Positions 13,831 through 14,085 of a stretch of DNA of 32,000 nucleotides are shown here, piece after piece. Made by a program: the position numbers and the translations under genes. This DNA is from Bdellovibrionales bacterium (lineage in GTDB: Bacteria; Bdellovibrionota; Bdellovibrionia; Bdellovibrionales; UBA1609), in the NCBI GenBank assembly GCA_963692945.1, contig OY843585.1, forward strand, positions 660,001 to 692,000. Reading direction: 5' to 3'. Under the pieces are notes generated by a model that ran no database searches, had not been told where the DNA came from, and saw only the letters and a list, made by a program, of their open reading frames with translations. Within the stretch, counting starts at the first letter, position 1; every line of letters begins with the position of its first letter.

Positions 13831-14085
13831 ACTCTAGTTCGGTTACTTAGATATTTTCTTACTCTTATTTTAACGAGATTTGAAGAACTTACCCATATGC
13901 GAAAAACAGTAAGTTTTTTCTATACAAAAACCAGAGTTGCGAAAACCAGTAGGTTTTCTCTATGTTAAAACTTTTATTTTTCACGAGATTTGAAGAGTGT
14001 CCCCTTTTACGATGAAAAGCTCGTGAAAAATAAAAGTTCACACACTAGAGTTTTGTAAATAGAGAAAACCTACTGGTTTCATAAG
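13811..14085. repeat. Palindromic repeat element copy R1 (mosaic of modules)
   Basis: It shares about 170 nt of near-identical sequence with 15921-16119. It contains the AAACTCTAGTTC terminus (13829-13840) and the long arm GGTTACTTAGATATTTTCTTACTCTTATTTTAACGAG. It also holds two tandem GCGAAAACCAGTARGTTTT modules, the core hairpin, and an outer 20-bp inverted repeat (13943-13962 / 14060-14079). Confidence 0.9.
13969..14038. other. Core hairpin of the repeat family: perfect 19-bp stem plus a 32-nt loop conserved at three loci
   Basis: AACTTTTATTTTTCACGAG (13969-13987) is the exact reverse complement of CTCGTGAAAAATAAAAGTT (14020-14038). The loop ATTTGAAGAGTGTCCCCTTTTACGATGAAAAG is identical at 16048-16079 and 24794-24825. 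Confidence 0.9.

What the first reader, a model, noticed from the sequence alone, without database searches (positions are those of the whole stretch)
13943..14079. Repeat family built around a hairpin with an invariant 32-nt loop and compensatory stem changes
The loop ATTTGAAGAGTGTCCCCTTTTACGATGAAAAG is 100% identical at 13988-14019, 16048-16079 and 24794-24825. It is flanked by two different stem versions that each pair.
- Version A is AACTTTTATTTTTCACGAG / CTCGTGAAAAATAAAAGTT (19/19 bp).
- Version B is ACTCTTATTTTAACGAG / CTCGTTAAAATAAGAG.
- Three differences on the left arm are mirrored on the right arm: C to A next to CGAG, one T fewer, and T to C.

A conserved loop plus covarying stems is the signature of a structure under selection. 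Candidates are a structured RNA, a REP/RAYT-like or IS200/IS605-like ssDNA recognition hairpin, or a protein-binding cruciform. It does not look like a simple terminator: the loop is too large and there is no clean U-tract. In R1 a second, perfect 20-bp outer stem (13943-13962 / 14060-14079) encloses the whole hairpin.
Basis: seen in the sequence. Interest (0 to 1): 0.7.

Follow-up and report, generated by a model that had tools for sequence, protein, structure and literature searches.

The report
Modular palindromic mobile repeat family
The hairpin is real. It is the core of a previously unrecorded family of small, non-coding, palindromic mobile repeats (like bacterial MITE/BOX/ERIC elements) that landed at gene ends in one reduced-genome bacterium, not demonstrably a new structured RNA.

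Summary
**Observation.** It holds. The 32-nt centre occurs three times, all identical. Two stem versions each pair, with two compensated substitutions and one paired indel. The outer stem at copy 1 is a perfect 21 bp.

**Wider structure.**
- The hairpin is only the core of longer foldback units: type A about 108 bp, type B about 130 bp.
- These units end in an inverted terminal motif, (AC)AAAACTCTAGT.
- They are mixed with about 40-nt tandem "C" modules in a BOX-like modular grammar.

**Evidence for insertion.**
- All three loci are insertions. Four syntenic relatives have compact, empty sites.
- The terminal motif, read as AAA-CTC-TAG, supplies the stop codon of two flanking genes.
- Copy 2 is a degenerate segmental duplicate of copy 1 and carries 19 nt of the merR 3' end. 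The window therefore holds only two independent hairpin lineages.
- Both A copies and a Sel1/trypsin gene lie between the two halves of a type-B unit split in its centre.

**Negative searches.** I found no match in Rfam, GTDB representative genomes, JGI metagenomes, IMG/VR, plasmids or phages. The window encodes no transposase.

**Verdict.**
- Most likely explanation: a lineage-specific MITE/BOX-like mobile repeat.
- Pairing, or arm-to-arm copying, is constrained.
- RNA-level and DNA-level roles cannot be separated here.
- Interest is modest: a new member of a known kind.

The parts
13829..13886 (+). Left half of a split type-B unit: terminal motif AAACTCTAGTTC (overlaps the merR stop TAA at 13828-13830), a 37-nt arm ending in TTAACGAG, and the first 9 nt of the centre (ATTTGAAGA).
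   Evidence: 92% over 50 nt to the reverse complement of the B right arm at 24826-24875, and 100% over 26 nt to 24777-24802. It is the inverted partner of 16140-16192, 53 nt at 87% (I1).
13887..13968 (+). Two tandem C modules (about 40-43 nt each). Each holds a 7-bp mini-hairpin (GAAAACCagtaGGTTTTC) followed by a T-rich tract.
   Evidence: Direct-repeat family D7. Terminator-like pattern hit at 13941-13958. Alignment A5.
13969..14038 (+). Type-A core hairpin, copy 1: 19-bp perfect stem around the 32-nt centre (13988-14019).
14039..14057 (+). Type-A right terminal segment CACACACTAGAGTTTTGTA, carrying the terminal motif.
   Evidence: 97% complementary to the orphan A left arm at 24684-24714 (I3).
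14059..14079 (+). Inverted partial C module. It forms the 21-bp outer stem with 13943-13963. Present at this locus only.
   Evidence: (I16).
14086..15900 (-). Secreted Sel1-repeat / trypsin-like protease gene (likely start ATG at 15810) enclosed by the repeats. Absent at this site in all four relatives.
   Evidence: Pfam Sel1 x9 and Trypsin_2. At least 4 paralogs in the same genome. Empty site in L001, L002, L005 and L006.
15921..15950 (+). Duplicate of the last 19 nt of merR plus the terminal motif AAACTCTAGTTC.
   Evidence: 29/30 identical to 13811-13840. The merR 3' end is native, since it is conserved in relatives.
15951..16116 (+). Second copy of C1-C2, the type-A hairpin (centre 16048-16079; the right stem lacks one A) and the A right terminal segment.
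   Evidence: 96% over 162 nt to 13898-14059..
16117..16192 (+). An 18-nt spacer resembling the Sel1 upstream sequence, followed by the right half of the split type-B unit: last 9 nt of the centre (GATGAAAAG, 16135-16143), the arm, and the terminal motif GAACTAGAGTTT (16181-16192), which contains the stop codon of the downstream hypothetical gene.
   Evidence: 87% over 60 nt to 24817-24876. CCTGTGATGA occurs only at 15918 and 16130, against 0.02 expected. The hypothetical protein is truncated by 10-14 aa and ends KL-stop.
24684..24715 (+). Orphan type-A left arm with the terminal motif (TACAAAACTCTAATGTGTGAACTTTTATTTTC).
   Evidence: 97% complementary to 16085-16116 and 14027-14057 (I2 and I3).
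24716..24762 (+). Single C module. Its 3' end merges into the left terminal motif of the B unit (CTCTAGTTC, 24748-24756).
   Evidence: (D7).
24748..24878 (+). Complete type-B unit: terminal motifs (24748-24756 and 24864-24872), a 15-bp perfect inner stem (24779-24793 / 24826-24840), and the centre at 24794-24825. Its right terminus supplies the last codons and the stop of the glutaredoxin gene.

Best explanation
**What it is.** These are copies of a lineage-specific family of non-coding, modular foldback repeats. This is the same kind of thing as bacterial MITEs and the BOX, ERIC and Correia elements.

**Anatomy of a unit.**
- An inverted terminal motif, (AC)AAAACTCTAGT.
- Complementary arms of about 38 nt (type A) or about 50 nt (type B).
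- A shared non-palindromic 32-nt centre.
- One to two tandem C modules of about 40 nt can sit between arm and centre. The 3' two-thirds of the centre itself looks like a truncated C module.

**Shown.**
- The units were inserted at the very 3' ends of genes in this lineage.
- Their terminal CTAG now provides the stop codon of two genes.
- One copy was later duplicated segmentally together with 19 nt of merR.
- A Sel1/trypsin paralog sits between the two duplicates.
- The whole block lies between the two halves of one type-B unit.

**Inferred.**
- The units are mobilised in trans by an enzyme encoded elsewhere in the 1.56-Mb genome.
- The enzyme recognises the identical termini and/or the conserved core. 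This would explain why arm changes appear on both sides.
- After insertion the units act passively. They serve as strong 3'/intercistronic hairpins in transcripts, with the C modules as small terminator-like hairpins on the + strand. They also serve as dispersed homology that drives duplication and gene shuffling.
For: **Repeat architecture.**
- Three loci share 100% identical centres and 86-100% identical arms.
- Types A and B share the termini and the 40-nt core but differ by 17-20 nt per arm (alignment A1).
- C modules occur in tandem and in different combinations.
- The last 23 nt of the centre match the 5' halves of C modules at 12-14 of 23 positions in a fixed register. The background P(>=13) is 0.0025.

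**Insertion.**
- Four syntenic relatives (PheT 65-83% identical) have merR followed directly by the next gene, separated by about 40 bp or less (overlapping in L005). Their hisKA-grx gap is about 100-150 bp.
- There is no trace of the repeats in about 83 kb of these relatives.
- The orthologous hypothetical protein is 10-14 aa longer in relatives. Here it ends ...KKL-stop, encoded by AAA CTC TAG of the terminal motif. Grx likewise ends TKL-stop.

**No coding capacity.** Only ORFs of 62 aa or fewer cross the repeats, and a translated repeat ORF finds no relative.

**Segmental duplication.**
- 13811-13840 matches 15921-15950.
- 13898-14059 matches 15959-16118.
- CCTGTGATGA occurs twice, against 0.02 expected.

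**Fit to known kinds.** The features match published definitions of MITE and BOX elements: AT-rich, terminal inverted repeats, a highly paired structure, an intergenic position and a modular boxA-boxB(n)-boxC layout (PMC3049150; PMC10969869).
Against: - No target-site duplication could be defined. The merR-hyp site shows loss of roughly 50-80 bp rather than a clean insertion.
- Only two independent insertion sites were seen, so family size is unknown.
- The centre is more conserved than the arms. This is unusual for MITEs and hints at a specific function for it.
- At least one copy spread by segmental duplication, not transposition.
Confidence: 0.6

Rival explanations
1. A cis-acting or small structured RNA under selection. 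The hairpin presents the conserved 32-nt loop, which holds a UCCCC tract on the + strand and an AAAGGGGA tract on the - strand. It would act as an mRNA-stability, processing or terminator element, or as an sRNA. Repeat spread would be secondary.
For: - Very stable folds with z from -4 to -10.
- Two compensated substitutions plus a paired indel.
- The loop is more conserved than the stems.
- All copies lie in transcribed-looking positions, directly after stop codons and between co-oriented genes.
- The small hairpins of the C modules match a terminator pattern.
Against: - No Rfam family matches, even at E<=1, beyond generic hairpin hits.
- Both strands fold equally well.
- The imperfect pairs give contradictory strand signals.
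- There are only two independent lineages.
- The element is absent from all four relatives at orthologous sites, so it is not a conserved regulatory feature of these genes.
- The centre has no significant structure of its own, z about -1.
Confidence: 0.15
2. A single-strand DNA recognition hairpin for a Y1/HUH enzyme (REP/REPIN-RAYT-like or IS200/IS605-like). The enzyme would cut in or next to the conserved centre.
For: - A perfect DNA hairpin with a conserved unpaired centre.
- One type-B unit is interrupted exactly inside the centre, between ATTTGAAGA and GATGAAAAG. The right break follows TTAC in the intact sequence.
- Mosaic, BIME-like combinations of palindromic units and linker motifs.
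Against: - The units have terminal inverted repeats and arms of 38-50 nt. REPs are short, about 20-40 nt, and IS200/IS605 ends are not inverted repeats (general knowledge).
- No Y1 transposase lies in the window.
- The interruption is not a clean insertion: the sequence after the left break is a diverged C module (13/23 identity).
- This could not be tested genome-wide.
Confidence: 0.1
3. A recombination or cassette site. The type-B palindrome arms would be the two ends of a cargo-carrying unit, and Sel1/trypsin effector paralogs would be captured or moved within the centre. The short 130-bp hairpins would then be empty or deleted derivatives.
For: - The Sel1/trypsin gene plus A units lie between B-left and B-right: 53-nt arms, 87% complementary, 2258 nt apart (I1).
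- The site is empty in relatives.
- The cargo is flanked by an imperfect direct repeat, TGAAGAA / TGAAAAG, which also brackets the middle of the intact centre (seen directly).
- At least 4 paralogs in the same genome share the upstream region up to CCTGTGA.
- MITE pairs flanking cargo are known (PMC10969869).
Against: - This is a single example.
- The paralogs are only 61-69% identical while the repeats are 87-100% identical, so the ages do not match.
- The duplicated merR 3' end shows ordinary segmental duplication.
- There are no integrase or attC-type core sites, and no extrahelical bases in the stem.
- The C-terminal and N-terminal tails of the paralogs gave no match to the repeats.
Confidence: 0.1

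Closest known systems
BOX elements of Streptococcus pneumoniae and S. suis (boxA-boxB(n)-boxC; Martin et al. 1992; Croucher et al. 2011, PMC3049150)
   Same: - Non-coding, AT-rich and intergenic.
- Modular: two partly complementary end modules enclose a variable number of about 45-nt tandem middle modules that fold independently.
- Predicted to form strong stem-loops.
- Often found in clusters and nested.
- Can modify the ends of genes.
   Different: - No sequence similarity.
- A different phylum (a Bdellovibrionota/Oligoflexia-like lineage).
- Here the arms pair almost to the centre.
- A 32-nt centre is shared by two arm subfamilies.
Bacterial MITEs with near full-length palindromy: Correia/NEMIS elements (Neisseria), ERIC/IRU (enterobacteria), RPE (Rickettsia), QMITEs (Coxiella) (PMC10969869; PMC3184786)
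   Same: - About 100-170 bp with inverted termini and no ORF.
- Insertion next to or into gene ends, including in reduced-genome intracellular bacteria.
- The transcript would fold into a long hairpin.
- Presence or absence differs between related genomes.
   Different: - No target-site duplication was detected.
- No cognate IS is known.
- The central segment is the best-conserved part, whereas in typical MITEs it is the termini.
- No IHF consensus was found in the centre (my own inspection).
REP / BIME / REPIN-RAYT systems
   Same: - Mosaic arrangements of palindromic units and linker motifs.
- The hairpin could form in single-stranded DNA.
- Located at the 3' ends of genes.
   Different: - The stems are AT-rich and 15-50 bp long, instead of short GC-rich palindromes of 20-40 nt.
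- Terminal inverted motifs are present.
- No RAYT gene lies in the window.

Membership tests
MITE (non-autonomous TIR element) | Small (about 50-500 bp), AT-rich, no coding capacity | tested here: met
   Units are 108-130 bp. The region is about 27-30% GC. Only spurious ORFs of 62 aa or fewer are present, with no homologue.
MITE (non-autonomous TIR element) | Terminal inverted repeats | tested here: met
   (AC)AAAACTCTAGT lies at 7 element ends in inverted orientation. There are 14 matches with up to 2 mismatches against 5.9 expected, and all the exact or 1-mismatch matches except one are at element ends. See also alignment A1.
MITE (non-autonomous TIR element) | Target-site duplication flanking the insertion | tested here: inconclusive
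   No matching direct repeat was found at the outer junctions. Comparison with empty sites shows sequence loss or divergence instead.
MITE (non-autonomous TIR element) | Insertion polymorphism: filled versus empty sites in related genomes | tested here: met
   Both insertion regions are empty in L001, L002, L005 and L006.
MITE (non-autonomous TIR element) | Many dispersed copies, and a parent IS or transposase with matching termini in the same genome | not testable with these tools
   The source genome is not retrievable. The window encodes no transposase. There are no copies in any public collection scanned.
BOX-like modular repeat | End modules that pair, plus a variable number of tandem internal modules | tested here: met
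   Arms are combined with 0.5, 1 or 2 C modules in different arrangements at the three loci.
BOX-like modular repeat | Sequence homology to boxA, boxB or boxC | tested here: not met
   The best Rfam hit is an unrelated Streptococcus sRNA model (RF02526) at 25 bits against a threshold of 64, with E=0.17. The elements work like BOX but are not members of that family.
Structured non-coding RNA family | Match to a curated RNA family | tested here: not met
   There are zero hits at gathering score. Only generic hairpin hits appear at E<=1.
Structured non-coding RNA family | Covariation over many independent lineages, with strand specificity | tested here: inconclusive
   Two compensated pairs and one paired indel between two lineages. 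The wobble and mismatch signals conflict between strands. Both strands fold equally.
REP/REPIN-RAYT | Short GC-rich palindromes of 20-40 nt with a conserved 5' tetranucleotide, and a RAYT gene flanked by them | tested here: not met
   The stems are AT-rich and the arms are 38-50 nt. No Y1 transposase lies in the window. Genome-wide presence of a RAYT could not be tested.
IS200/IS605-derived element (PATE) | Subterminal imperfect hairpins at each end, no terminal inverted repeats, TnpA(Y1) | tested here: not met
   The elements have inverted termini and a single central hairpin.
Intrinsic terminator | Short GC-rich stem, small loop, U-tract | tested here: not met
   The large hairpin was not detected by the scan. 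Only the mini-hairpins of the C modules fit the pattern, on the + strand.
Integron attC site | R''/L''-L'/R' core sites (RYYYAAC/GTTRRRY), extrahelical bases, an integrase nearby, and cassettes in the same orientation | tested here: not met
   The stems are perfect with no conserved bulges. No integrase lies in the window. The stem ends do not fit the core-site consensus (my own inspection).

The most novel reading that the evidence does not exclude
The conserved 40-nt core (CGAG, the 32-nt centre, CTCG) may be a dedicated recombination site. On this reading the type-B palindrome arms are the ends of a hairpin-bounded cassette system. That system would move or duplicate secreted Sel1/trypsin effector genes in a reduced-genome, probably host-associated Bdellovibrionota-like bacterium. 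The short hairpins would be empty sites or deletion derivatives.
Probability: 0.1. Interest if true: 0.6.

Novelty: new member of a known kind. Interest (0 to 1): 0.3.

Why it matters
**If the best explanation is right.** This adds a MITE/BOX-like repeat family to a poorly known, uncultured lineage with small genomes (1.1-1.6 Mb) that is probably host-associated. It shows such repeats doing three things there:
- remodelling gene 3' ends, including a truncated protein and donated stop codons;
- seeding segmental duplication;
- surrounding an expanding family of secreted Sel1/trypsin proteins.

This is useful for annotation, for strain typing and for understanding genome plasticity in that lineage. 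It is not conceptually new.

**What could raise its value.** The unusually conserved centre is the one feature that could hide something more specific, such as a protein-binding or cleavage site or an RNA loop. The complete genome would allow a quick test.

Tried and rejected
**1. Collecting more copies.**
- An exact 23-nt centre and a gapped pattern (GAGATTTGAAGA N8-30 GATGAAAAGCTC) were scanned against GTDB representative genomes, JGI metagenomes and IMG/VR.
- The only hits were two unrelated coding sequences, in a Bacillaceae MAG and a Pseudomonas genome. I rejected them as chance because the spacing and reading frame differ.
- blastn against plasmids and phages found nothing.

**2. Reaching the source genome.**
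- Its proteins are in the protein index: P0001 and P0121-P0124, on a 1,561,448-bp contig.
- The DNA is not retrievable, and no names are attached.

**3. Fishing copies via a translated repeat ORF.** There was no candidate.

**4. Repeat-derived tails on the Sel1 paralogs.** tblastn of the paralog tails gave no match to the repeats. P0124 does end ...RKL-stop, like the two genes here that stop in the terminal motif, but this is anecdotal.

**5. Apparent similarity of the B right arm to the grx-hisKA spacer of relative L001.** It is not better than shuffles: 371 of 1000 shuffles scored at least as high.

**6. A possible repeat remnant at 12980-13014.** This sequence is native and conserved in L001.

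**7. Promoter in the centre.** The TTGAAG...TACGAT spacing is only 12 nt, and the scan found none.

**8. Building a covariance model or running an R-scape-type test.** This is pointless with two independent lineages, so I did not do it.

**9. Analogous palindromes around Sel1 genes in relatives.** None were found.

Full report

Yes.
- The 32-nt sequence ATTTGAAGAGTGTCCCCTTTTACGATGAAAAG occurs exactly three times (13988, 16048, 24794), all on the + strand. There are no additional matches with up to 3 mismatches, and none are expected by chance.
- The flanking arms pair as described. Version A is 19/19 bp at locus 1. At locus 2 its right arm has lost one A.
- Version B at locus 3 has 15 perfect pairs and then a C.A mismatch.
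- Between A and B, pair 14 changes from C-G to A-T, pair 5 changes from T-A to C-G, and pair 9 is deleted on both sides.
- The outer stem at locus 1 is a perfect 21 bp, 13943-13963 with 14059-14079. It exists only there.
- Predicted folds are far more stable than shuffled controls, z from -4.3 to -10.2, and equally so on both strands.
- The centre alone has no significant structure.

**2. What surrounds the hairpin?**

The hairpin is the inner part of longer foldback units.
- Type A reads TACAAAACTCTAGTGTGTGAAC-TTTTATTTTTCACGAG-[centre]-mirror image.
- Type B reads AAACTCTAGTTCAGTTACTTAGATATTTTTCT..TCTTATTTTAACGAG-[centre]-mirror image.
- The two types share an inverted terminal motif, (AC)AAAACTCTAGT, which lies at seven element ends. 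They also share a 40-nt core, CGAG-centre-CTCG.
- Type B has 17-20 extra nt per arm (alignment A1).

A third component is the C module.
- It is about 40-43 nt (GCGAAAACCAGTAGGTTTTCTCTATG...) and contains a 7-bp mini-hairpin followed by a T-rich tract. That tract fits a terminator pattern on the + strand.
- C modules occur in tandem pairs at loci 1 and 2, singly at locus 3, and as an inverted fragment at 14059-14079. That fragment creates the outer stem.
- The last 23 nt of the "loop" match the 5' halves of C modules at 12-14 of 23 positions in a fixed register. The background probability of at least 13 matches is 0.0025. The centre may therefore itself be a truncated C module.

This end-module, tandem-middle-module, end-module grammar is that of pneumococcal BOX elements (PMC3049150).

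**3. Are they insertions?**

The window comes from a Bdellovibrionota/Oligoflexia-like bacterium.
- PheT is 100% identical to P0001, which lies on a 1.56-Mb contig. The best named relatives are at about 52-53% identity.
- Four syntenic relatives were retrieved, with PheT 83, 82, 67 and 65% identical (L001, L002, L005, L006).
- All keep the order pheS-pheT-ihf/hu-merR-(hyp)-...-hisKA-grx-HNH-topoVI.
- In all of them merR is followed by the next gene within about 40 bp (overlapping it in L005), and hisKA-grx is separated by about 100-150 bp.
- None of about 83 kb contains any part of the repeat family.

Window 13829-16192 (2.36 kb) and 24684-24878 are therefore lineage-specific insertions.

The junctions are informative.
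- The merR stop TAA overlaps the first bases of the terminal motif.
- The downstream hypothetical protein is 10-14 residues shorter than its orthologues and ends ...KKL-stop, encoded by AAA CTC TAG of the terminal motif.
- Glutaredoxin likewise ends TKL-stop in the motif.
- No target-site duplication could be recognised. Roughly 50-80 bp of ancestral sequence is missing at the merR-hyp site.

**4. How many independent copies are there?**

Locus 2 is a degenerate segmental duplicate of locus 1.
- 13811-13840 matches 15921-15950 at 29/30. This stretch includes the last 19 nt of merR, which are native because relatives have them.
- 13898-14059 matches 15959-16118 at 96%.
- The 27 nt ending in CCTGTGATGA upstream of the Sel1 gene recur just before the B right half. 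CCTGTGATGA occurs twice against 0.02 expected.
- GTGATGA is present at all three junctions (13812, 15921, 16132). This suggests microhomology-mediated duplication, which is an inference.

Between the duplicates lies a gene for a secreted trypsin-like protease with about 10 Sel1 repeats. It has at least four paralogs elsewhere in the same genome.

The whole block is bracketed by the two halves of one type-B unit, split inside its centre.
- The left half is the arm plus ATTTGAAGA at 13829-13886.
- The right half is GATGAAAAG plus the arm at 16135-16192.
- The arms are 53 nt and 87% complementary (I1).

The window thus contains two independent hairpin lineages (A and B), not three.

**5. What does the "covariation" mean?**

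Pairing is clearly preserved. Independent drift of the two arms would not give two exactly mirrored substitutions and a mirrored deletion, with no uncompensated substitution in the 15 pairs next to the loop of the intact type-B hairpin.

Three mechanisms give this pattern:
- (a) selection on an RNA or DNA hairpin;
- (b) both arms being binding sites for the same protein;
- (c) regeneration of one arm from the other (foldback copying or intra-palindrome conversion).

With two lineages these cannot be separated. Other signals do not help.
- The strand-specific signals conflict: there is a T.G pair on the + strand in split B and a C.A pair on the + strand in B at locus 3.
- Both strands fold alike.
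- Rfam has no match.

One real oddity is that the centre is better conserved than the arms. At the stem's rate of about 3 events per 19 positions, zero changes in 32 nt has P of about 0.004 (my own calculation). This points to a specific role for the centre, or to recent exchange of centres between copies.

**6. Most likely mechanism (confidence about 0.6)**

This is a lineage-specific, non-autonomous, modular foldback repeat, mobilised in trans by an enzyme encoded outside the window. No transposase, integrase or Y1 gene is among the window's ORFs.

Shown:
- insertion;
- inverted termini;
- modularity;
- donation of stop codons;
- truncation of one protein;
- segmental duplication around a Sel1/trypsin paralog.

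Inferred:
- trans-mobilisation;
- passive roles as 3' or intercistronic RNA hairpins;
- a role as recombination substrates.

Rivals:
- a selected structured RNA (0.15);
- a REPIN/RAYT- or other HUH-type single-strand DNA site (0.10);
- a cassette or recombination site that carries Sel1/trypsin genes in the centre of type-B units (0.10).

These are not strictly exclusive of the main explanation.

**7. Comparison with known systems**

- It works like BOX, ERIC, Correia, RPE and QMITE elements (PMC3049150; PMC10969869; PMC3184786).
- It is not a sequence member of any of them.
- It fails the defining features of REP/RAYT, IS200/IS605 derivatives, attC sites and intrinsic terminators that could be tested here (see the membership table).
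- No copy exists in GTDB representative genomes, JGI metagenomes, IMG/VR, PLSDB or INPHARED. The sequence family is unrecorded in those sets.

**8. Verdict**

- The finding is a new member of a known kind.
- Interest is modest (0.3).

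Noticed in passing
window 16895-17068: A perfect 55-bp tandem repeat in three copies (100%, 100%, 94%). It lies upstream of, and overlaps, the 5' end of the first PLP-dependent decarboxylase ORF (D9).
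   Followed up: no
window 17009-19746: Two tandem paralogous Orn/Arg/DAP-type decarboxylase genes, 73-86% nt identity. Relative L001 has one copy. L005 and L006 have none at this position.
   Followed up: partly
window 18475-23243: A window-specific block absent from relative L001. It holds:
- a beta-solenoid/bactofilin-like ORF with 18-nt periodicity (19743-20384);
- unknown ORFs of 148 and 747 aa with no Pfam or NCBIfam hit;
- a 96-nt direct repeat at 80% identity (22751-22846 and 23262-23357).

   Followed up: partly
window 20458-20527: A heptanucleotide microsatellite, (AGGCTAA) in about 10 copies, in the spacer between two ORFs (D12).
   Followed up: no
window 25648-28808: Genes for topoisomerase VI subunits B and A, an archaeal/eukaryote-type enzyme, in a bacterium. 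They are conserved at the same position in the three relatives whose retrieved DNA reaches this position (L001, L005, L006); the L002 contig ends before it.
   Followed up: partly
window 25289-25570: A stand-alone 93-aa HNH endonuclease-domain protein next to grx. It is conserved in L005 and L006. It shows only weak similarity to the HNH domains of Cas9d and IscB, far below threshold.
   Followed up: partly
window 2420-2436: A 17-nt exact match (GATAAAAAACTCTAGT...) to the reverse complement of the junction at 16183-16199, lying in the htpX-dnaJ spacer. L001 lacks these about 20 nt. This may be a solo terminal motif or a footprint of the repeat family.
   Followed up: partly
window 14086-15900 (-): The Sel1/trypsin gene contains 8-10 internal 108-nt (36-aa) repeats at 67-86% identity. 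It belongs to a family of at least 5 paralogs in the genome, which share a conserved upstream region.
   Followed up: partly
L002 (GCA_029782575.1, contig JARPSI010141093.1), L006 6404-7687, L005 19210-22418: - One relative sits in a very large assembly with more than 140,000 contigs.
- The relatives carry ankyrin-repeat, Sel1 and tandem TraB/PrgY-family gene arrays.
- The retrieved contigs of relatives L005 and L006 are 1.15 and 1.30 Mb and the source contig is 1.56 Mb, which suggests genomes of roughly that size.
- Together this suggests a host-associated, reduced-genome lineage.
   Followed up: no
L003 4925-4973; L004 6851-6896: The gapped loop pattern hit two unrelated protein-coding sequences, one of which begins MRFEELPTPCFVVDEKL... 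These are chance matches forced by the pattern ends.
   Followed up: yes
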